Of a stretch of 64,000 bases of DNA, positions 1,946 through 63,649 are shown one piece after another. A model generated the notes under the pieces. The model was not told the origin of the DNA and made no database searches. It was given only the letters and a program-made list of their open reading frames with translations. The stretch lies in NCBI GenBank assembly GCA_038087875.1, contig CM075988.1, positions 21,454,001 to 21,518,000 on the forward strand, read 5' to 3'. This DNA comes from Malacoraja senta. Taxonomy: Eukaryota. Numbering within the stretch: the first letter of the stretch is position 1; the number at the start of each line of letters is the position of its first letter. The position numbers were made by a program, and so were the translations under genes.

Positions 1946-2271
1946 GTGTAGCAAGGAACTGCAGATGCTTGTTTACACTGAAGTTAGATGCAAAATGCTG
2001 GAGTAACTCAGCGGGACAGGCAGCATCTCAGGATAGAAGGAATGGGTGACGTTTCGGGCCTCGACCAGAGTCTGAAGTAGAGTCTCGGCCCGAAATGTCG
2101 CCCATTCCTTCTATCCAGGGAAAAATAAATCTTAGGTAGACAAAAGTCTGAAGAAGGGTTTCGACCCGAAACGTTGCCTATTTCCTTCGCTCCATAGATG
2201 CTGCCTCACCCGCTGAGTTTCTCCAGCATTTTTGTCTACCTTCGATTTTCCAGCATCTGCAGGTCCTTCTT
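1946..2271. mobile_element. Two adjacent short Penelope-derived elements (subfamily 1 then subfamily 2)
   Basis: Target GAAAATAAATCTT-like sequence present three times (1933-1945, 2120-2133, 2272-2285); hammerhead-like core at 2148-2175. Confidence 0.7.
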
Positions 2272-2671
2272 GAAAAATAAATCTTGTCTGGAAATGTTTT
2301 GAAGCCGCTTGCTGTTTGTGATGAAATCAAACTAGCATAAAATTTGGAAATGCTGAGCGGATTTTGTGGGATGTATTTTAAGAATAGATTCTTCCTGGCC
2401 TTTCCCGACACAATCTGGAATCCATTCAATCACGGACTAAAACCAATTATGGAGGGAAACAAAAACGAGTCTGTAGCTAATGAGAGCAACATGATGAACT
2501 TTGAACAGAAATGCGTCCTCTGTATTCAAAACGAGATGTCAGAATGGCCGATGAAATATTTGGAAAGAGGTTGGGAAACAGGAAATATATCTTTCTAGAG
2601 ACCTTCAAATTCAAAGTTTATACACAAGGACCGCGAGGCATCGTGAAGTGTTTCACAGTAGCTTATCAAAT

Positions 2672-2995
2672 CCTCTTGCTCAGTCAGAGTGAGGCCAAAC
2701 GCCAATTGGAGGAGCAGCACCTCATATTTTGCTTGGGCAGCTTACACCCCAGTGGTATGAACATTGACTTCTCTAACTTCAAGTAACCCTTGCTTTCCCT
2801 CTCCCTCTGTCCCTCCCCCAGCCTAGTTCACCGACTAGTTTCACTGATTAATTTTACTGTCTACCTCGTTGTCATCTTTGATTTGTCCCTTTCTCACCTT
2901 ACATGGTTTTTGCCCCTTCCATATTGCTCCTTTCTCTTTCCCCTGACTCTCAGCCTGAAGAAGGGTCTCAACCCAAAATGTTACCCATTCCTTCT
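2672..2995 (+). mobile_element. Penelope-like element 3' fragment (GIY-YIG endonuclease C-terminus plus 3' UTR)
   Basis: Translates QSEAKRQLEEQHLIFCLGSLHPSGMNIDFSNFK*, followed by a pyrimidine-rich UTR and CTGAAGAAGGGTCTC motif. Confidence 0.75.
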
Positions 2996-3171
2996 CTGCC
3001 TGCATTTGGCCCATATCCCTCTAAACCTGTCCTATCCATGTACCTGTCTATGGACACAAAATGCTGGAGTAATTCAGTGGGACACAACGTTATCCATTCC
3101 TTCTCTCCAGAGATGCTGCCTGACCCGCTGAGTTAATCCAGCATTTTGTGTCTATCTTAAATGAAACATTT

Positions 3172-3628: not shown

Positions 3629-4637
3629 CAATTAAAATGATGTTAGTCGGCAGGGAAGATAAACACCAAATGCTGGAGTAACTCAGCGGTTCAGGCAGCA
3701 TCCCTGGAGAGAAGGAATGGGTGACGCCTGAAGAAGGGTCTCGACTCGAAACGTCACGCATTCCTTCGCTCCAGAGATGTTGCCTGTCCCGCCGAGTTAC
3801 TCCAGCATTCTGTGTCTATACCTGGTGTAAACCAGCATCTGCAGTTCCTTCCTGCCGACACATTGCTGCTGTCATGATTTGTGCCGAGTTAGCTGCTTTA
3901 ATCAGGATGGTAATAAGTGCACTCCATCTGCCTTCAGCAATTTTGGATCGGAGAGTTGAAGATCAGCCAGGGTTATGCTCAGTTCCTGATCTGTGTTTAG
4001 GGAGCGTGTGCGTGGCTTTGTGACTTCCTACAGGATACAATGGGCTGCCAATACTCCCCGTGGGACTGCCCTGGGAGCACCGGCCACACTCCACACACAA
4101 GCTGATGGACGCAGGCACTGAACCAGACTCCAACCAGGGGATGGAAACCACCCCATGGGCAGGGATGCTGATCAAAGCAACCTCCTGACAAGAACATGGC
4201 TGGCGACGGTCCAAGGTAAAGTTGAATGTCATGAACCAGAGAAACCAGAACAGAAATTGGGCGGAGGAGAATCAGTTTAAATTGTAGCAGCAGAGTGGAA
4301 AAGTTCAAAGACAAATGAAAAGGTGACATCAATTTTGCAATAGAGAGATTTATGAATGTTTATTGCTTTAGTGTTTGGATATTGTTGTCACAAGAGTCAG
4401 CAGATAAACGCGATGCGGATTTTTAAATCGCTCAGTCAACTCTTTTAGTGAAGCCACAAAATGTTTAACACAGATGAGCTAGAGGCAGGGAAACATTGCA
4501 GAAGTGTGATAAGCCGTTGTCGCCCAATGTTGCTGATAGTAATTTCAAGTCATTGTTAGTGCAATCTTGCTTGAAAGCAATAAAGCTGAAGTATGTTTCC
4601 ATGTGAAAGCTTTGATACTGGTCCACAGGACATACTC

Positions 4638-10156: not shown

Positions 10157-10770
10157 TGTGTAGGAAGGAACTGCAGATGCTGGTTTAAACTGAAGATAGA
10201 CACAAAAAGCTGGAGTAACTCTGCGGTTCAGGCAGCATCTCTGGAAAAACGAATAGGTGATGTTTCGGATCGAGGACCTTCTTCAGACTGAGTCAGGGGA
10301 AAGGGAAACAAGAGATATAGACAGCGATGTAGAGGAACATAGAACAAATGAATGAAAGATATGCAAAAAAGTAATGATGATAAAGGAAACAGGCCATTGT
10401 TAGCTGTGGCTTGGGTGAAAACGAGGTCAGACAATGAGACTCAACAAGACGCCTTTGAAGCTGGTACGACTTGGCTGGGGGAGGGATGGAGAGAGGGGGG
10501 ATGCAAGGGTTACTTGAAGTTAAGGGCCTGTCCCATTTGGGCGTCATTTGCGCGTCACGCAGGTGGCGAGCGAAGATTTTGTGAATCCCAAAATCCTGGG
10601 GCGCCGCGTGCGACCGAGCGTCACTGCCTACGTCACCACGCACCATGCACGCGTAATGCACGCATCACGTGCGCGTCACGACACGTGCGTCATGACGCGT
10701 AAATGATGTCGTGTAAATGACGCGCAAATGACTCCCAAGTGGGACAGGCCCTTTAGAGAAATCAATATTC
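10157..10770 (-). mobile_element. Penelope-like element 3' end interrupted by a MITE
   Basis: Reverse complement of ORF end (NIDFSNFK*) plus long UTR and hammerhead-like core at about 10261-10287. Confidence 0.7.
10523..10752. mobile_element. PIF/Harbinger-like MITE, internal type B
   Basis: TIR AGGGCCTGTCCCA / TGGGACAGGCCCT extended by GTCATTTGCGCGTCA / TGACGCGCAAATGAC; TTA TSD at 10520-10522 and 10753-10755; empty site GAAG-TTA-GAGAA seen at about 24535. Confidence 0.85.
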
Positions 10771-11167
10771 GAAGTCGTCTTGTTCAGCGATCATTAATTA
10801 CAATGCTCCTTGGGCTAACTGGCAATGTGTATAATCGTCTACACTGGAGTCCTGATCGCACTTTGAAAGTACTTTCTTGGGTGTGAATTGCTAAAGATTA
10901 TTTGAAAGTGATAGAAGGCATAATATATATACAAGTGTTTTGACAGGTTTAGAAAAGATTAAAGCACCAATTGGTACAGTGACAGGAGGCTGATTTAATA
11001 GACCACTGTCTCAATGCCAGGATTAATGTTGCCAGGATAAGATCACATGTCACTAAAGCAATTTGGAATTTGAAAAAGTCAGTTAATTAAATAACTCTGC
11101 AATAAAAACCTGATGCCAGTGTGGGAGACATGACATTTTCGAATTGTTCCAAAAGCAGATCTGATTT

Positions 11168-11599
11168 CCAAGCGCAGGCTCGGTGATCGCTTTGCCCAAC
11201 ACCTCCGCTCGGTTCGCACAAACCAACCTGATCTCCCGGTGGCTCAGCACCTCAACTCCCCTCCCATTCCGAATCCGACCTTTCTGTCCTGGGCCTCCTC
11301 CATGGCCAGAGTGAGGCCCAGCACAAATTGGAGGTACAGCACCTTATATTTCGCTTGGGTAGCTTCCACCCCAGGGGTATGAACATTGACCTCTAATTTC
11401 AGATAACCCTTGCTTTCTCCCTCTTTCCCCTTCCCCTTGCCACAAGCCTATTGTCTCCGCCTCTTCCTTTCTTTTTCCACCCCCCCCCGACATCAGTCTG
11501 AAGAAGGGTCTCGCCCCAAAACGTCGCCTATTCCTTCTCTCCATAGATGCTGCCTCACCTGCTGAGTTCCTCCAGCATTTTTGCCTACCTCTGATTTCC
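11168..11599 (+). mobile_element. Penelope-like element 3' fragment (GIY-YIG domain C-terminal half, subfamily 2 UTR)
   Basis: KRRLGDRFAQHLRSVRTNQPDLPVAQH...DLSVLGLLHGQSEAQHKLE.QHLIFRLGSFHPRGMNID with small frameshifts, then CTGAAGAAGGGTCTCGCCCCAAAACGTC at 11498. Confidence 0.8.
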
Positions 11600-15759: not shown

Positions 15760-15944
15760 GGTAGACAAAAGTGCTGGAGAAACTCAGCGGGTGCAGCAGC
15801 ATCTATGGAGCAAAGGAAATAGGCAACGTTTCGGTCCGAAACGTTGCCTATTTCCTTCGCTCCATAGATGCTGCTGCACCCGCTGAGTTTCTCCAGCACT
15901 TTTGTCTACCTTCGATTTTCCAGCCTCTGCAGTTCCTTCTTAAA
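15760..15944. mobile_element. Short Penelope-derived element, subfamily 2, near-perfect 151-bp palindrome
   Basis: 15760-15910 is self-complementary with one arm mismatch; flanking duplication CATCTGCAGTTCCTT at 15745-15759 and 15945-15959. Confidence 0.8.
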
Positions 15945-21972: not shown

Positions 21973-22321
21973 TCCGCGCCGACCAACCATCCCCGCACAC
22001 TAACACTATCCAACTCACACTACAATTTTACCGAAGCCAATTAACCTATAAACCTGAGATAGACACAAAAAGTTGGAGTAACTCAGCGGGACAGGCAGCA
22101 TCTCGGGAGAGAAGGACTGGGTGACGTTTCGAGTCGGGACCCTTCTTCACACTGGAGTGACCTGAAACGTCACCCATTCCTTCTCTCCATGGATGCTGCC
22201 TGTCCCGCTGAGTTACTCCAACTTTTTGTGTCTATCTCAGGTTTATAGGCTAATTGGCTTCGGTAAAATTGTAGTGTGTGTAGGATAGTGTTAGTGTGCG
22301 GGGAAGGTTGGTCGGCGCGGA
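21973..22321. repeat. Inverted duplication with about 158-bp arms (SINE piece plus Penelope-derived piece)
   Basis: 21973-22130 matches the reverse complement of 22164-22321 including private variants. Confidence 0.8.
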
Positions 22322-42221: not shown

Positions 42222-42421
42222 NNNNNNNNNNNNNNNNNNNNNNNNNNNNNNNNNNNNNNNNNNNNNNNNNNNNNNNNNNNNNNNNNNNNNNNNNNNNNNN
42301 NNNNNNNNNNNNNNNNNNNNNNNNNNNNNNNNNNNNNNNNNNNNNNNNNNNNNNNNNNNNNNNNNNNNNNNNNNNNNNNNNNNNNNNNNNNNNNNNNNNN
42401 NNNNNNNNNNNNNNNNNNNNN
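42222..42421. other. Assembly gap (200 N)
   Basis: Run of N; adjacency across it is not verifiable. Confidence 1.
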
Positions 42422-43568: not shown

Positions 43569-45949
43569 TTACTTGTGAACTTTTTGAACTTGTCCCCCTT
43601 TCCAAACGTCGCCGATGTGTCTCACGACGGTTGCTGCCTGACCCACAGAGTCTCTCCAGCACTGTGTGTTTTTTATCAACAGAGTAGAACTGACACCCCG
43701 TGAAAGTCTGATGTCTCATCCATCAATAATCTCACAAGCACAATCGATCCCAACACAGTTTGTGCACTCTACCGGTCCTCTCCTCCGTTGCGGGATAACA
43801 CCCTCCATAAATTGAATTTCAGATCTTTTTTTCTGCCAATTGACGACTAAAAAGTCATTACAGCGAGCAGTACAAGAAAGAAAATGTGTGTTTTTTTCTC
43901 CCTGTTTTCTTCAGCTGTTTGACGCATGAAAAATACATGAGGTTCTGCATGGTATTTCTCAGTTGGTAAAAGCCCTGAACGATCCCCCATAATATGATAA
44001 ACAACTAACATGGAAATATTCTCATTAACATGTAATTACGACCCGTGTTTTTTAAAAGCTTTGAGAATTCACCATCCAGCACCCATTGGAGGATAAATAT
44101 TTTCAAAGCACCATATGTTTATGAATACTGTGATTTATTCAGATTAATGAGGCAATTTCCCTTCATAAAGTTAAAGATAGCATTAGATTTGTAAAGTAAC
44201 AATCTGGCCTCCTTCCAAATGTATGGAAATAGCAGCTAAGACAGCTTTATCTGTGGTGCTAATGCACCTCTTTTTACACAAAGGGTGGTGGGTGTATGGA
44301 CCGAGCTGCCAGAAGGGGGTAGTTAAGGCAGGTGCTATCACAATGTTTTAAAAAACATTAGGACAACTAGATGGGTAGGATAGGTTTAGATGGAATGTGT
44401 AGCAAGGAACTGCAGATGCTGGTTTACACCGAAGATAGACACAAAACGCTGGAGTACCTCAACATGACTGGGTCAGTAACATTACTGGAGAGAAAGAATA
44501 GGTGATGTTTCAGGTCGGAACCCTTCTTCAGACTGAAAGGTTCTGACACTAAACATCACCTGTTTAAGAAGGAACTGCAGATGCTGGAAAATTGAAGGTA
44601 GCCTTTCTTCTCCCCCCCCCCCCCCCCACCCCCCACCCCACATCAATCTGAAGAAGGGTTTCGGCCCGAAACGTTGCCTATTTCCTTCGCTCCATAGATG
44701 CTGCTGCACCCGCTGAGTTTCTCCAGCACTTTTGTCTACTTAACGTCACCTATTCTTTCTCTTCAGAGATGCGGCCTGACCTGCTGAGTTAGTCCAGCAT
44801 TTTGTGTCTATCTTAGGTTTAGATGATATGGGTCAAACGCAGGCAGGTGGGACTAGTGTAGATCAGACTTGTTGGTCGATGTGGGCAAGTTGGGCCGAAG
44901 CGCCTGTTTCCATGCTGTACGACGCTATGAGTCCATGACCTCAGCAGGGCTAGTAGTCAGTTTGCAGTCTGTAAAAGACCAAGTCAATGGATATTTATAA
45001 GGCAGAGGTTGATAGGTTCTTTATTAGTACGGGTGTCAGAGGTTATGGGGAGAAGGCAGGAGAATGGGGTTGGGAGGGAGAGATAGATCAGCCATGATTG
45101 AATGACGGAGTAGAATTGATGGGCAGAATGGCCTAATTCAATGACAAACATGAACTTCTGAAGGGTCCTGACCCAAAACATCGCCTGTCCATTCTCTCTC
45201 GCAGAGGCAGCCCGACCCACTGAGTTCTTCCTGCACTTGGTCTCATGTCGGTCGTGCTTGTCGCTGCCGTGACCCTCAACCTATCAATCCACCCGCACCG
45301 TTCATCCACGTTCTTATCCCTGTAAAATGATTCAGCAGTTCCACAGAAAGCTAAATTAACTCACTCAGCCATCTACAGTTAAAGCTGTATAATCCCATTA
45401 TGCTGATTGATGGTGAGTAGATACAGCAGCCTTATTCATGGAAATGCAATATGGATGTGAACATATATTTTGGCGGAGGGGTAATGAGTTGAAAGTACAA
45501 CGTTACAAAATTATGCTTGCCGAATAATCAATTTTGCAAACAGGAGAGGGAAAAGCTGACCCGCTTTTCGTCAGCAGATTTAGGGCTGGCTGCATGAGTG
45601 GCTTTCTGCATGGAGTCAGCATGTCAACACTCCACTGCCATCAGCTCCCTTCGCATGCAAATCACTTTCTGCTGCTGAGACTGATTATTGTGGTGGGCAG
45701 GTTAGCAAAATGCCGGAGTAACTCAGCGGGACAGGCAGGCAGCATCTCTGGATAGAAGGAAAGGGTGACGAAATTAGCTTCTGCAGTTCCTTCCCAGCAA
45801 ATGCAAAGGGCAAGGCCCATGCAAGACAATAGATTGAAGGGAGTTGGTGCAGTCCAAACCCTGAACATGAGGTTCCCTGGAGCTCCCTCTAGTGGGCAGG
45901 TCATTCTAAGACAGGCAGACTGGCCAAGCATGGCCTCCGGCTTTGAACA

Positions 45950-54512: not shown

Positions 54513-54849
54513 GTGGATGTAATGTAAACACAAAACTATCACCGACAGCTTATCCAGACAGGAAGCAATTACAATAACTCATTTGCCTGTCCATTCTGAA
54601 AGTACGTTCTAGGAATTGGCAGTGTTCTGGTGAAAAACAAGTATAGAAATGAAGAAGGGTTTCTACCCGAAACGTTGCCTATTTCCTTCGCTCCATAGAT
54701 GCTGCTGCACCCGCTGAGTTTCTCCAGCATTTTTGTGTACCCAGAAATGAATGAAGACAGACACAAAAAGCTGGGGTGACTCAGAAGGCCAGGCAGCATC
54801 TCTGGAGAGAAGGAATCTGTGACGTTTTGGGTCGAGACCCTCCTCGAGT

Positions 54850-54877
54850 CTGAAGAAGGGTCTCGACCCGAAACGTC
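54850..54877 (+). ncRNA. Minimal type I hammerhead ribozyme-like motif (representative copy)
   Basis: CUGAAGA-A-GGGU(CUCG)ACCC-GAAAC-GUC: catalytic core boxes, stem II hairpin, palindromic ACGU stem III, GUC triplet; stem I only about 2 bp. Confidence 0.55.
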
Positions 54878-56809
54878 ACCCGTTCCTTCTCTCCAGAGAC
54901 GCTGCCTGTCCCGCTGAGTCACTCCAGCCTTTTGTGTCCGTCTTTGGTTTAAACCAGCATCTGCAGTTCCTTCCTACAGATAGAAATTAACGATGAAGCC
55001 CACAGATGCTGAGTGATGGCATCTCCTTCAGAGAGAATGTTTTCTTCAAAGTGACACTGTTGAAGCAATTGTTTTTCTAACCACAGCAACACAGGGCATT
55101 TTACTGAGAATTCATGTTCCTGTGGAAAGATTTCGCTTATAGTCACGGCTGCATCACCATTCCTCTCACTCAGTCCTGTCAGTGGTGCCTATTAAGAAGG
55201 ATTCCACTTTACATTACAAATGTGTTGCAGTTTTTGGATGTAGTTTAGTTTGCTTTAGTTCGTTCCAGAGATACAGCATGGTGGAAGGCCCTTCTGCCCG
55301 CCGAGTCCGTGCTGTCCGCTCTAGTTCCATGTTATCCCACTCCTGCATCCCACACACTAGCAATCAAGTTTTCAGTGAAAGGTAAATGGAAATTGCCACC
55401 ACATGCAACATTGTAGTACAGTGACATGATCCCAAGGAATGACCCGCTGTGTTTAGTTTCCTTCGGTTTAGTTTAGAGATACAGCACGGAAACAGTCCCT
55501 TCGGCCCACCGAGCCCGCGCCGACCAGCGATCCCCGCGCACTAACATTATCCTACATTTCTGCGAGACTGTCCCTGAATCTGGAGGTGTGTGTTTTCACA
55601 CTCCTTACATCCTTTGCCTGATGGGAGAGGGGAGAAGAGGGAGTGGCCGGGGTGCGACTCATCCTTGAATATGCTGCTTGATTGGACCTTGCCGGGGCAG
55701 CGTGAGGTATAAATGGAGTCAATGGAAGGGAGGTTGGTTTGTAGTGATGGTCTGGGCTACGTCCACAGGATGCAGTCGATGTGGGGGGAAGCTACTTGGC
55801 ATGGACTCACTTCTGCAATTCACCATTAAATGGGAGATTTCACCAATCTCCATCCAACTATGAAGACATAGAAACATAGAAACATAGAAAATAGGTGCAG
55901 GAGTAGGCCATTCGGCCCTTCGAGCCTGCACCGCCATTCAATATGATCATGGCTGATCATCCAACTCAGTATCCCGTACCTGCCTTCTCTCCATACCCTC
56001 TGATCCCTTTAGCCACAAGGGCCACATCTAACTCCCTCTTAAATATAGCCAATGAACTGGCCTCGACTACCCTCTGTGGCAATCTACACCTTTCAATATT
56101 TCAGCAAGCAAGTTACGTTTGAGTGTTCGCAGCCTTTGAAGGAAGAAGGTGATAGAATCTTGATGTCGAAGATACATTTCATTTACATATGGAAATTGGT
56201 AATTAGGTACCACACTCTTTAATAATAATCAGCCAAATGGATGTCATTTTGTCAGGTAAAAGTACAGTTTCATCATATCAGTGTGTCATTTGACTTTTCT
56301 ACAGATGTAAAATTACAAATTAACATTGCGCTTAATTGATGGCAGTGTTATTAACTTGTCAGGAAGCAGTAAAAACAGAAAGAGGTAACATTCTCCCCTT
56401 GTGGTTTATTGAGAATAAAGTAACCGAGACAGCGGATGTGTGTCAGACTGTCATTAAATCGTGAGAGAATGTTGATGGAATTGGAACCGTGCGTGTGGGC
56501 TGAGTAAATGGATTCATCAAGCAGGTATCACAGTCCGCAGCTGGTGGAGCTGCTGCCTCCCAGCGGCAGAGACCCAAGTTCGATCATCACCTCCGGTGTT
56601 ATCTATGTGGAGTCTTCACGTTTTCCCCTGCGCTCCGGTCTCCTCCCATATCCCAAAGACGTGCAGCATTGTAGGCTGGTTGGTCACTGTAAATTACTCC
56701 TAGTATGTAAGGAGTGGATGCAAAAGTGGGATAATAGAACCGGTGTAAACAGGTGGTCAGCATGGACTCGGTGGGCCGAAGGGCCCGTTTCCATGCTGGA
56801 TCTTTCTTT

Positions 56810-57868: not shown

Positions 57869-59031
57869 CTATCTCATGGAATAAGGTGGAAAGGCATGAG
57901 GGGCTGAACTGCCTGCTCCTGATTTTCTACTCATGTTTTTACAAAATGCTTCACATTAAGGCCTCCACGTTCAGAGTAACAAATTAAGAAATGTGTTGGT
58001 TGTAACTGCAAATTGGGACTTCGAGAATATGTCATACAAGCTAGAGTGAGATTTCTTTCAGTGTTTGCAAAATGCAATTTGTGAATTTTGGCACTTCTAT
58101 TAATAAAATTAACTTGTGTGGTGCATATGTGAATTATTTTCAGTCTGTTACCCAGACTTGGATTGCAATATTACGGATATTAGACAGATAGATTGGGTAG
58201 TGCACTCAACTCAAATTGAGACTAATTTAATTAGATTAGGCAGGTTATAACTGCTAATATCTTCTGGTAATAGATAATTATCTTCCTTATTTTCAGTGAC
58301 TGCTGCTAAGAGCTATTGTGTGGATTACTGTGAAATCATTCAAATATTGACGGCAGGCACAGAAAGAGCGTAAAAAAACAAAAACAGGAGTAAGCAGTTT
58401 TGTTCCTTCTACCTGCCTTGACGATCAACAAGACTGTGGCCAATATGATGATGCCTTGATCTGTACTGATTGGGGATGATCAGCCATGATCACATTGAAT
58501 GGCAGTGCTGGCTCGAAGGGCCGAATGGCCTACTCCTGCACCTATTGTCTATTGTCTATTGATCTCTTCCCAGCTCTTCCCAATTCATAAATTCATAACT
58601 TCATAAGTTCTAGGAGCAGAGTTAGGCCATTTGGCCCATCATGTCAACTCCGCCATTCAATCATGGCTGATCTATCTTTCCCTCTCGACCCCATTCTCCT
58701 GCCTTCTCCCCATAACCCCTGACACGTGTACTAATTAAGAATCTATCTATCTCTGCCTCAAAATATCCATTGACTTGGCCTCCACAGCCGTCTGTGGCAA
58801 AGAATTACATGGTGCCCAAAACTGAACCACAAGAGTGCAGGACATCAGACCATCTCCATTAAGAGAGAGACTGTCTATCCTTGGCATTCAATATGCAGTA
58901 CCATTGCTAAGACCTGATTATTAGCATGTCTGTGCTAACCTCAGACCAATAACTCAGATGGACCAGCCACATAAAGTCCGTGGATACAAAAGTAGGGCAG
59001 AGACTGGGATTCCTGCGGTGATAATTCCAGT

Positions 59032-59059
59032 CTGATGAAGGGTCTTGACCCGAAACGTT
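59032..59059 (+). ncRNA. Hammerhead-like motif with canonical CUGAUGA box
   Basis: CTGATGA-A-GGGT(CTTG)ACCC-GAAAC-GTT; a second CTGATGA copy is at 42062. Confidence 0.5.
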
Positions 59060-59225
59060 ACCCAATCCTTCTCTCCAGAGATGCTGCCTGTCCCGCTGAG
59101 TTACTCCAGCTTTTTGTATTTATCTACCGATGGCTCAATGTCTTTCCACTATCTACCAGTCAGGAGCCTGATGGGATACTCTCCACTTACCTTGTGGAGT
59201 GCACGCTCACTGCCAAGAAGCTTAA

Positions 59226-61766: not shown

Positions 61767-62768
61767 TTTTTTTTTTTTTTTTTTTTAATTTTTATTTATT
61801 AGAAGTACATTACATCACAGCCACATACATTAATACTCGTCATTTATATCTTCTTACAATTAATGTACTCCCTTTATTTATTTTTTTTACACTAAAGAAA
61901 GAAAAGATTGAAAGAGAGAAGAAAGTGAAGGAAAAAGTGCAAGTGTAGAAAAGTGTAGAAAATGTAACAACAAAAAAAAAGGACGAGGACCCTATGAGAG
62001 CGAAATTAAAAACAAAAAGAAAAAGAGTTAAGAAATAGGCCCTAAGAAAAGAAAAGAGAGAGAGAAAAAAAGAAAAACAAATGTTTTTTTTTTTGAGCAT
62101 CACGTAAATAGGACATACCAACTCTTCAACTATCATCCCCCCTTACCCGACCTCAATTTTTTATTTTTTTAAAGTACTTTTGCACCCTATGTTTGTAATA
62201 ATTCTATAAATGCAGACCACGTCAGGTGGAAGTGATCTGGTTTACCTGCTAGGAGGAGTCTTATCTCTTCAAGGTGTAGTGTTTCAAACATATTTGAAAT
62301 CCACATATTTATAGTTGGTATTGGAGCCTTCTTCCAAAATTTTAGAATTAGCTTTTTTCCAGTTATTAACCCATAATCCATTAATTTCTTTTGAAACACA
62401 TTTAGTTCTGGATCATCTTCCGTTATTCCGAAGATAATCCATTCTGCTTTGGGTATCAGTCTTGTTTTAAATAACTTTGTAAAGATTTCAAAAATTTCAT
62501 TCCAAAATTTTTGAATTTTTGTACAGAAGACAAATGAGTGCGCTATAGTTGCTTCTTGGGATTGACATTTATCACAAATAGATGATACGTTTGGGAAAAT
62601 TTTATGAATTTTAGTTTTCGAATAATATAATCTATGTAAAATTTTAAATTGTATTAAAGTGTGTCTTACATTAATCGAGCATTTATGTACTTTTAATAAG
62701 TATTCATTCCAACTTTCCTTTGAAATTTTAATAGCTAACTCTTGTTCCCAGTCTCTTCTGATACCCTC
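61767..62768 (-). mobile_element. L1-clade LINE, 5'-truncated, recent insertion
   Basis: Poly(A) tail; perfect TSD CTGTACCTTGATAAT (61752-61766, 62769-62783); stop-free frame 62187-62768 with IQFKILHRLY and CDKC-x8-H-x4-C zinc knuckle. Confidence 0.9.
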
Positions 62769-63649
62769 CTGTACCTTGATAATAAAGAATCATTGAACCA
62801 TTGACAATGTTCTTGGCAATAACTAGATTTAAAAAAAAGTGAAATAATAGTAAACTCAGAGAGAGGGAGTACCCGAAATATCTACTCTCTATCTACAAAG
62901 TTTGAGTGAAAAAATCGATAAGAGAGTAAATAAATTAAGAGCAAACCAGGAAATATAAATAGCGTCAGGTTGGGGGGGATTGGTACAAGTCTCCAAAGGG
63001 GAAGCAATTAGTCTTCATGAATAAGGAACCCCAGAGGAGGACAGGGAACATTGCAGAGGAGAAAACAAAAAAGACAAGTTATATCAAGCAAATATCCTCT
63101 TTAGAGTGGAACACACTGATCATTCTGTAAATTGCAATGAGACAAATATTTGATGACCAATGAGATAATTAATAGCAAAGGAAAGATGCTAGAAGAACAT
63201 TAATGGACCTGATCACTGCTGTCCCTTGAACAAAATGCTGGAGTAACTCAGTAGGATCTTTTCTAAGCTCCTTGACCCCCATCTCTTTTGATGTCTTGTT
63301 TTCACACTTTACTCTTCCTTATCTTTGTGTCTCCCTCCCCCCCAGACTCTCAGTCTGAAGAAAGGTCTCGACTCAAAACATCGGCCGTTCCTTCCCTCCA
63401 GAGATGCTGCCTGTCCCGCTGAGTTACTCCAGCTGAGTTACTCCAGCATTCTGTGTCTATCTTCGGTGTAAACCAGCATCTGCAGTTCCTTCCATCCTAC
63501 ATTTCATCTGGCCTTTGTGCCTGATGCACTGCACAGAGTGAATCTCACCCGCTGAGTTTCTCCAGCATTTTTGTCTACCTTCGATTTTCCAGCATCTGCA
63601 GTTCCTTCTTAAACGTGAATCTAACAGCTGTATTTTCAGAAACAGTGCG

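What the first reader, a model, noticed from the sequence alone, without database searches (positions are those of the whole stretch)
11168..11599. Hammerhead ribozyme core carried by a very abundant Penelope-derived mini-retroposon
Seen: the most frequent non-SINE short repeat here contains CTGA(A/T)GA-A-GGGT-CTCG-ACCC-GAAAC-GT(C/T). More than 20 intact or decayed copies are recognisable on both strands (e.g. plus 2148, 3728, 25144, 40241, 42062, 44648, 54850, 59032; minus about 11916, 13532, 23405). At this locus, and at 2672, 10157 and 23370, it lies in the 3' UTR directly after a GIY-YIG C-terminus. Established: CUGANGA and GAAA are the hammerhead catalytic boxes, and Penelope-like elements are known to carry minimal type I hammerheads. 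Inference: stem III is the loopless palindrome ACGU, so it could only close between two copies (dimeric hammerhead), and there is an extra A between A9 and stem II. Stem I is only about 2 bp, so activity is not certain. If active, host transcripts crossing this region would be dense with potential self-cleavage sites.
Basis: partly seen in the sequence, partly recalled or inferred. Interest (0 to 1): 0.8.

Follow-up and report, generated by a model that had tools for sequence, protein, structure and literature searches.

The report
Decayed hammerhead ends of Neptune retrotransposon
This is a dead stump of a very common Penelope-type jumping gene ending in the minimal hammerhead-ribozyme motif such elements are already known to carry; this copy has lost a catalytic letter, only 3 of 63 copies in the window keep the whole motif, and host RNA is likely not cut by them.

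Summary
The repeat is real: 63 copies, 7.6% of the window, none in a reversed control. It is the end (pseudo-LTR) of an endonuclease-positive Penelope-like element of Neptune type. The motif is the published minimal hammerhead of such elements (Cervera and de la Pena 2014): no helix III, palindromic ACGU, one unpaired base after A9. Five distantly related families keep the same core with different stem II pairs. The flagged copy is predicted dead (G12 is A, one stem II pair broken). Only 3 of the 30 copies spanning the motif are complete, and they lie kilobases apart. In 24 of 29 copies a competing fold is predicted. Poly(A) RNA reads from another organism carrying the family cover the motif about equally on both strands, with no read-end pile-up at the cut site. 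The 'dense self-cleavage' idea is not supported. One side result: 20 of 33 copies reaching the core begin within six bases just before or at it, and none begins at the cut site. The stubs are likely run-off copies of uncut RNA, not an independent mini-retroposon. This scan reported the same family and this reading before in other shark and skate genomes.

The parts
11167..11406 (+). 5'-truncated C-terminal part of a Neptune-type GIY-YIG endonuclease ORF, frameshifted near 11257-11262 and near 11390; stop at 11404-11406
   Evidence: tblastn (P0124 87.5% over 11167-11262; P0001 73% over 11259-11393); translation
11407..11494 (+). Pyrimidine-rich 3' UTR / pseudo-LTR part (87% pyrimidine in the last 30 bases)
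11495..11497 (+). First three bases of the short-copy unit: 5' strand of the 2-bp stem I, inside an initiator-like TCAGT; place where short copies begin
   Evidence: loose ends before 11495 and 11496; initiator consensus recalled
11498..11527 (+). Decayed minimal hammerhead: CUGANGA box 11498-11504, extra A 11505, stem II 11506-11517 (broken at 11514), G12 replaced by A at 11518, palindrome and UH 11521-11525, nominal cut 11525/11526
11528..11599 (+). Downstream leader with conserved ATG at 11547, ending just past the first 3' end of the family (partial tail)
2120..2284 (+). Complete-motif copy (C3 at 2148) of a young subfamily: stub plus tail, preceded by an inverted 11-base piece of the family's 3' end, all inside a 14-base target duplication
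54757..54975 (.). Head-to-head pair; the plus arm (C3 at 54850) has a complete motif, predicted to be buried in a long hairpin with the inverted arm
59029..59123 (+). Third complete-motif copy (C3 at 59032)
10160..10522 (-). Long copy with whole 3' UTR, decayed hammerhead and full tail; only about 4 endonuclease codons; marks the two 3' ends (about 10193 and 10162)
2673..2998 (+). Second copy with endonuclease C-terminus, UTR and decayed hammerhead (G12 lost)

Best explanation
The locus and its 62 relatives are 5'-truncated ends of a Neptune-type Penelope-like retrotransposon that carry the class's minimal hammerhead motif; they were likely copied from uncut element RNA and are predicted to be almost all inactive in host transcripts. 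Steps. (1, shown) The motif sits in the terminal repeat 90-235 bases behind the GIY-YIG stop. (2, from literature by analogy) In a partial tandem that repeat is also the 5' leader of the next copy's RNA; in relative L002 the motif does lie just upstream of the ORF (shown). (3, inferred) The element protein nicks AT-rich DNA and starts reverse transcription inside this leader at two sites about 30 bases apart (the two 3' ends are shown). (4, inferred) Most cDNAs run off the RNA's 5' end three bases before the catalytic box and insert as 95-135-base stubs; priming on both target strands would give the head-to-head pairs; rarer copies go on into UTR and ORF. (5, inferred) The ribozyme is kept by selection on master elements and would cut only as a protein-assisted dimer. 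(6, shown) Inserted copies decay fast because G12 and the palindrome lie in CpG dinucleotides.
For: Family link: P0124 matches the flagged fragment at 87.5% and carries the C-x4-C-x2-C linker before the GIY-YIG motif (Pfam GIY-YIG E=0.0013, below cut-off). Full-length relatives have RVT_1 plus GIY-YIG; 31 of 75 long relatives match a linker pattern. Motif under selection between families: 36 descriptor hits in 79 related loci and 0 in reversed controls; all 36 have exactly one extra base and a G-C first pair of stem II, and 35 have the CG palindrome, though the descriptor allowed otherwise. 3 of 4 stem II pairs and 3 of 3 stem I pairs change on both sides. Uncut template: 0 copies start at columns 30-34 around the cut, while 20 start at columns 1-6 where 1.6-3.7 are expected. 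In the anole element uncut RNA is the main substrate and cleavage needs protein (PMC11167929, parts 1-2 of 4). Two 3' ends with A/T-rich flanks in contigs of three organisms. 11 head-to-head pairs. Five plausible target duplications among 27 copies. Decay: G12 diverged in 7 of 28 copies against 11 of 292 non-CpG core cells. Inactivity: competing fold in 24 of 29; double-hammerhead form about -6 kcal/mol against -17 to -25 for other dimers; no start or end pile-up, and sense and antisense depth within about 15% over the motif.
Against: No cleavage assay and no mapped start site. The RNA test is weak: one run, about 6% of it read, a different organism, a pile-up threshold of one fifth of depth, and cut products may be degraded. 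Folding energies ignore tertiary contacts and proteins. All 6 copies with core, stem II and palindrome lie on the plus strand (P=0.03, post hoc), which could reflect purging of active copies on a transcribed minus strand; no host gene was found to test this. The cross-family core invariance and stem II pairing are partly built into the descriptor, and 29 of 36 related loci with enough flank showed no motif within 700 bases. No RT-coding or linker sequence of this family lies in the window, so the clade rests on protein relatives.
Confidence: 0.85

Rival explanations
1. The stubs are an independent non-autonomous mini-retroposon (SINE- or retrozyme-like) with its own promoter, which is transcribed and re-copied in trans.
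For: Sharp common 5' end; target duplications around some stubs; an in-frame stop in the leader ORF shared by 4 copies of one subfamily (1985, 10196, 24999, 47918); PLE-derived retrozymes are described in vertebrates (10.64898/2026.07.22.740005, part 1 and passages).
Against: Stubs share subfamilies with UTR- and endonuclease-bearing copies, and no stub-specific sequence was seen. There is no array of complete units; the 7 close same-strand neighbours mostly involve partial copies. Stubs end at the RT start sites, whereas the anole element needs RNA to +172, beyond its start sites (PMC11167929).
Confidence: 0.12
2. Intact copies act as dimeric self-cleavage sites in host transcripts and affect host RNA.
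For: The family is abundant in poly(A) RNA (13,683 of 7,335,232 records laid). The 6:0 strand skew of near-intact copies. Vertebrate retrozymes are reported depleted from introns and exons (10.64898/2026.07.22.740005, passages).
Against: Only 3 of 63 copies are complete, 4 kb and 53 kb apart, and one is buried in an inverted repeat. The ACGU self-duplex is worth only -1.7 kcal/mol. No read-end pile-up or depth step. Published monomers are inactive and dimers weak (PMC4209133).
Confidence: 0.07
3. The common 5' boundary is a splice acceptor (pyrimidine tract plus CAG), as in Drosophila virilis Penelope, where the intron ends at helix I; spliced RNA would carry a different stem I.
For: 9 UTR-bearing copies have 67-87% pyrimidine in the last 30 bases; 1.2% of background 30-mers reach 77%. 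Precedent in PMC4209133 and PMC2377424 (passages). Family reads show a donor-like GT at the stop codon.
Against: Stubs keep the AG and have no shared upstream exon: loose letters before 11495 and 11496 agree only 0.35 and 0.32. No matching joint among the 15 joints shown of 117. The donor at the stop would not lengthen stem I. An intron may still exist in master transcripts; it just does not explain the stubs.
Confidence: 0.1
4. The motif is a non-catalytic relic in this lineage, kept only as leader structure or promoter sequence.
For: Stem I is only 2 bp; the competing fold dominates; 25 of 57 downstream non-CpG columns are similarly conserved (7% divergence or less) within the window.
Against: Subfamily variants fall on tolerant positions (N7, loop II, wobble pairs, H17); the same core recurs in five other families; the anole motif cleaves with protein (PMC11167929).
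Confidence: 0.2

Closest known systems
Minimal type I hammerheads (min-HHR) of metazoan Penelope-like elements (Cervera and de la Pena 2014, PMC4209133; parts 1-2 of 4 read)
   Same: Both boxes, no helix III, palindromic 15.2-16.2, one base between 9 and 10.1, G10.1-C11.1 pair, location in the pseudo-LTR, mostly solo copies from truncated elements; reported in Neptune, Poseidon and Xena elements of fishes.
   Different: Stem II is 4 bp and stem I 2 bp (Schistosoma families 7-8 and 4-5 bp; the D. virilis variant also has 2 bp). About one copy per kb here. Cartilaginous fishes are not mentioned in the parts read.
Poseidon element PAc of Anolis carolinensis (Frangieh et al. 2024, PMC11167929; parts 1-2 of 4 read)
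   Same: Hammerhead at the pLTR-ORF junction; two RT start sites with a tail between; AT-rich targets; both strands extended; no RNA-seq reads ending at the cut site.
   Different: PAc is Poseidon and its start codon lies at stem II. Here relatives are Neptune-type and the candidate ATG lies about 21 bases past the cut.
Neptune clade of endonuclease-positive PLEs (Craig et al. 2021, PMC8557442; passages)
   Same: C-terminal GIY-YIG, cysteine linker in close relatives, 5' truncation, inverted 5' copies, 30-40-base tail.
   Different: No full-length copy in the window; Nematis shares the linker and was not excluded by a tree.
Non-LTR retrozymes (10.64898/2026.07.22.740005; part 1 of 5 and passages)
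   Same: PLE-derived short repeats with type I hammerheads; reported in one chondrichthyan genome.
   Different: Retrozymes are tandem arrays of complete units; these copies are dispersed, often head-to-head, and have defined RT-start ends.

Membership tests
Minimal hammerhead of PLEs | CUGANGA and GAAA boxes around a stem II closed by G10.1-C11.1 | tested here: met
   Majority letters of the family and 10 of 30 spanning copies; not met in the flagged copy (G12 is A)
Minimal hammerhead of PLEs | No helix III; palindromic 15-16 segment followed by UH | tested here: met
   ACGU then C or U
Minimal hammerhead of PLEs | Unpaired base between positions 9 and 10.1 | tested here: met
   A in 30 of 30 spanning copies and one base in 36 of 36 hits in related loci
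Minimal hammerhead of PLEs | Short helix I | tested here: met
   2 bp here; 1-5 bp in related families
Minimal hammerhead of PLEs | Self-cleavage as dimer or with protein | not testable with these tools
   Read lays show no cut ends but are a weak test
Rfam hammerhead families | Match to a hammerhead covariance model | tested here: not met
   expected for a motif without helix III
EN+ Penelope-like element | C-terminal GIY-YIG endonuclease upstream of the terminal repeat | tested here: met
   tblastn; the fragments alone do not reach a Pfam hit, relatives do
EN+ Penelope-like element | Optional 30-40-base tail and inverted 5' copies | tested here: met
   Two ends about 30 bases apart; 11 head-to-head pairs
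EN+ Penelope-like element | Telomerase-like RT in the same ORF | tested here: inconclusive
   Present in relatives; no RT piece of this family in the window
Neptune clade | Cysteine (Zn-finger-like) linker between RT and endonuclease | tested here: met
   In P0124, 87.5% identical to the flagged fragment; the window copies are cut off before it
Neptune clade | RT phylogeny separating Neptune from Nematis | not tested
   No named reference sequences at hand
Non-LTR retrozyme | Tandem array of at least two units with complete hammerheads | tested here: not met
   complete copies lie 4 kb and 53 kb apart

The most novel reading that the evidence does not exclude
The master RNA starts three bases before the catalytic box, so the hammerhead is the capped 5' end of the transcript and the stubs are genomically inserted run-off cDNAs, a fossil map of the start site and both RT start sites. 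Stem I then cannot exceed 3 bp. A conserved competing fold holds the ribozyme off until a dimer of element protein brings two RNAs together through the ACGU palindrome. That pairing would both feed two templates to the two nicked target strands, giving head-to-head pairs, and later cut off the capped 31-base end.
Probability: 0.15. Interest if true: 0.65.

Novelty: new member of a known kind. Interest (0 to 1): 0.25.

Why it matters
As a ribozyme finding it adds one more family to a class described in 2014. Its use is practical. At about one copy per kilobase, with sharp ends, the family records where a vertebrate Neptune element starts its RNA and its reverse transcription. It also allows a well-powered genome-wide test of whether such hammerheads ever cut host RNA (intact versus G12-mutant copies, by strand, in introns), a point the papers read leave open.

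Tried and rejected
Rfam: no hammerhead hit; the miRNA-like matches are the head-to-head hairpins. No whole genome was held, so there are no genome-wide counts or within-genome covariation. An exact motif scan of metagenome contigs found 0. No RNA holder was listed for the locus; this is no evidence on expression. Lunse et al. on dimeric PLE hammerheads was not held; I saw only its title in a reference list. Host gene: 150 of 154 low-repeat ORFs gave no Pfam match above cut-off. Lower divergence of core than downstream columns inside the window (3.8% against 12%) was rejected as evidence of selection after insertion, because alignment edges and subfamily columns bias it. Extra cap-derived G before the stubs: 4 G among 11 copies starting at column 1, inconclusive. 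Whether head-to-head arms come from one or two RNAs: arms are near-identical in 2 of 11 pairs and not clearly closer than other copies in the rest, inconclusive. Two of 7 target-duplication matches were dropped as tail sequence (24999, 47918). Paper searches for Neptune+Penelope+shark, skate genome+Penelope, Chondrichthyes+Penelope and hammerhead ribozyme+shark (listings only) showed no paper devoted to this family; Repbase and Dfam were not available. Figures and supplements of the papers were not seen and may show shark examples.

Full report
Observation. An iterated profile finds 63 copies covering 7.6% of the window and none in the reversed sequence. All 11 listed positions hold a copy. 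Thirty copies span the motif. Of these 15 keep both catalytic boxes and UH, 10 also a full stem II, 6 also the palindrome, and 3 also the 2-bp stem I (2148, 54850, 59032). An independent descriptor finds the same three and none in 40 composition-matched controls. The flagged copy is not among them. Position 11518 is A where G12 should be, and 11514 breaks a stem II pair; 75% and 79% of family reads have the standard letters. G12 and the palindrome lie in CpG dinucleotides, and G12 has diverged in 7 of 28 copies against 11 of 292 cells for the other core positions. Rfam does not see the motif.

What carries it. Bases 11167-11393 encode a frameshifted GIY-YIG C-terminus; further pieces lie at 2673, 24533, 54368 and 63651. 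At 10157 and 23370 almost only UTR is left. The best named protein hit is from Leucoraja erinacea (61%), so a skate- or ray-like host is likely (inference). P0124, 87.5% identical to the flagged fragment, has the cysteine linker that PMC8557442 (passages) gives for Neptune and Nematis, and full-length relatives have RT plus GIY-YIG. Structural marks of Penelope-like elements are present. There are two 3' ends about 30 bases apart with A/T-rich, unrelated flanks in contigs from three organisms and in the window. There are 11 head-to-head pairs involving 22 of 63 copies, and five plausible target duplications among 27 copies tested.

Is it a hammerhead. PMC4209133 (parts 1-2 of 4) defines a minimal hammerhead in PLE terminal repeats with no helix III, a palindrome at 15.2-16.2, a base between 9 and 10.1 and a G10.1-C11.1 pair. 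It reports monomers inactive and dimers weakly active, and most genomic copies as solo remains of truncated elements. To test conservation between families I fetched 79 loci encoding relatives. A relaxed descriptor gave 36 hits of 6 distinct sequences (31 hits from one family) and 0 in reversed controls. Among 42 loci examined, 7 of the 36 with enough flank had a sense hit within 700 bases behind the endonuclease match and none an antisense hit; 29 had none. In an alignment of 3 window copies and 6 outside copies (5 families; one variant of other length left out), 92% of cells pair, 6 of 7 pairs change on both sides, and slid controls give 13-48%. The descriptor demanded the boxes, stem II and a palindrome, so those are circular. 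The single extra base, the G-C closing pair, the CG identity, stem I pairing (not demanded) and the orientation are not.

Would it cut host RNA. Probably not. Nearest-neighbour folding puts the stem II G-run with the pyrimidines behind the cut site in 24 of 29 copies and in stem II in 2. The double-hammerhead form scores about -6 kcal/mol against -17 to -25 for other dimers; these models ignore tertiary contacts. The three complete copies are 4 kb and 53 kb apart, and one is buried in an inverted repeat. One raw poly(A) run from another organism carrying the family was laid on two copies. 13,683 and 12,340 of 7,335,232 records fit, both directions were within about 15% over the motif, depth showed no step at the cut site, and no place had many starts or ends. 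This is a weak test: 6% of one run, a threshold of a fifth of depth, and products that may be degraded. It agrees with PMC11167929 (parts 1-2 of 4), where the anole hammerhead cuts only with protein, uncut RNA is the main substrate and no reads end at the site. Against my reading, all 6 near-intact copies are on the plus strand (P=0.03, post hoc; all copies 36:27, P=0.31). No host gene was found to interpret this.

How the stubs arise. Of 33 copies reaching the first box, 20 begin in the six columns from the A three bases before C3, 3 within seven bases upstream, and 10 run into UTR (UTR lengths assigned by hand). The expected number is 1.6 at the background rate or 3.7 at the rate just downstream (P=3e-9). 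No copy begins at the cut site. RNA reads show the same edge: 842 and 775 loose ends before 11495 and 11496 with no common sequence. The edge lies in a TCAGT that resembles an initiator (consensus recalled; PMC3846280, passages, notes an initiator-like TCACT in a rotifer pLTR). With internal RT initiation as in the anole element, run-off at the RNA 5' end gives exactly such stubs. I saw the pile-up but settled on the run-off reading after seeing earlier notes of this scan; those notes are leads, not support. The start site is inferred, not mapped. A splice acceptor at the same place has precedent in D. virilis (PMC4209133; PMC2377424, passages) and cannot be excluded for master transcripts, but it would predict a shared upstream exon, which is not seen. 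PMC3846280 explains head-to-head junctions by self-priming on an antisense template, an alternative to two-strand priming that I did not test.

Verdict. A new member of a known kind. The ribozyme motif and its link to Penelope-like elements are published, the flagged copy is predicted dead, and the host-RNA consequence lacks support. The scan has reported this family in other shark and skate genomes. The remaining interest is the sharp 5' boundary and the statistical power the family offers. Interest 0.25.

Noticed in passing
window 11547 onward and 34 other copies: An ATG about 21 bases past the cut opens a short frame that stays in frame with the tail across three subfamilies despite length differences, likely the ORF's N-terminus; one subfamily has an in-frame stop shared by 4 copies.
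   Followed up: partly
window 22059-22300: Head-to-head pair whose two arms continue into the same SINE-like flank in inverted orientation, suggesting a larger fold-back duplication.
   Followed up: no
window 15761-15909, 3659-3819: Inversion junctions that fall inside the stem II palindrome, making near-perfect hairpins that score as miRNA-like in Rfam.
   Followed up: partly
window 44571-44646: The tail of one copy lies inverted directly at the 5' side of a UTR-bearing copy.
   Followed up: no
window 11160-11450 and 10290-10370: In RNA run X23 the endonuclease and UTR parts are read up to 5 times more in one direction (antisense if the library is of the usual kind), while the hammerhead part is balanced.
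   Followed up: no
L002:10-42: A distant Neptune-type element has almost the same stem II as the window family, only 1 bp of stem I, and the motif about 185 bases before the first ATG of its ORF.
   Followed up: partly
L079:1-1280: A Neptune-type element with hammerhead lies in a contig filed as an Endozoicomonas MAG, probably animal host DNA in a bacterial assembly.
   Followed up: no
window 62190-62789: Fragment of a LINE-type ORF with a weak zf-RVT match; 56% of the window lies in window-internal repeats; a 200-base gap at 42222-42421.
   Followed up: no
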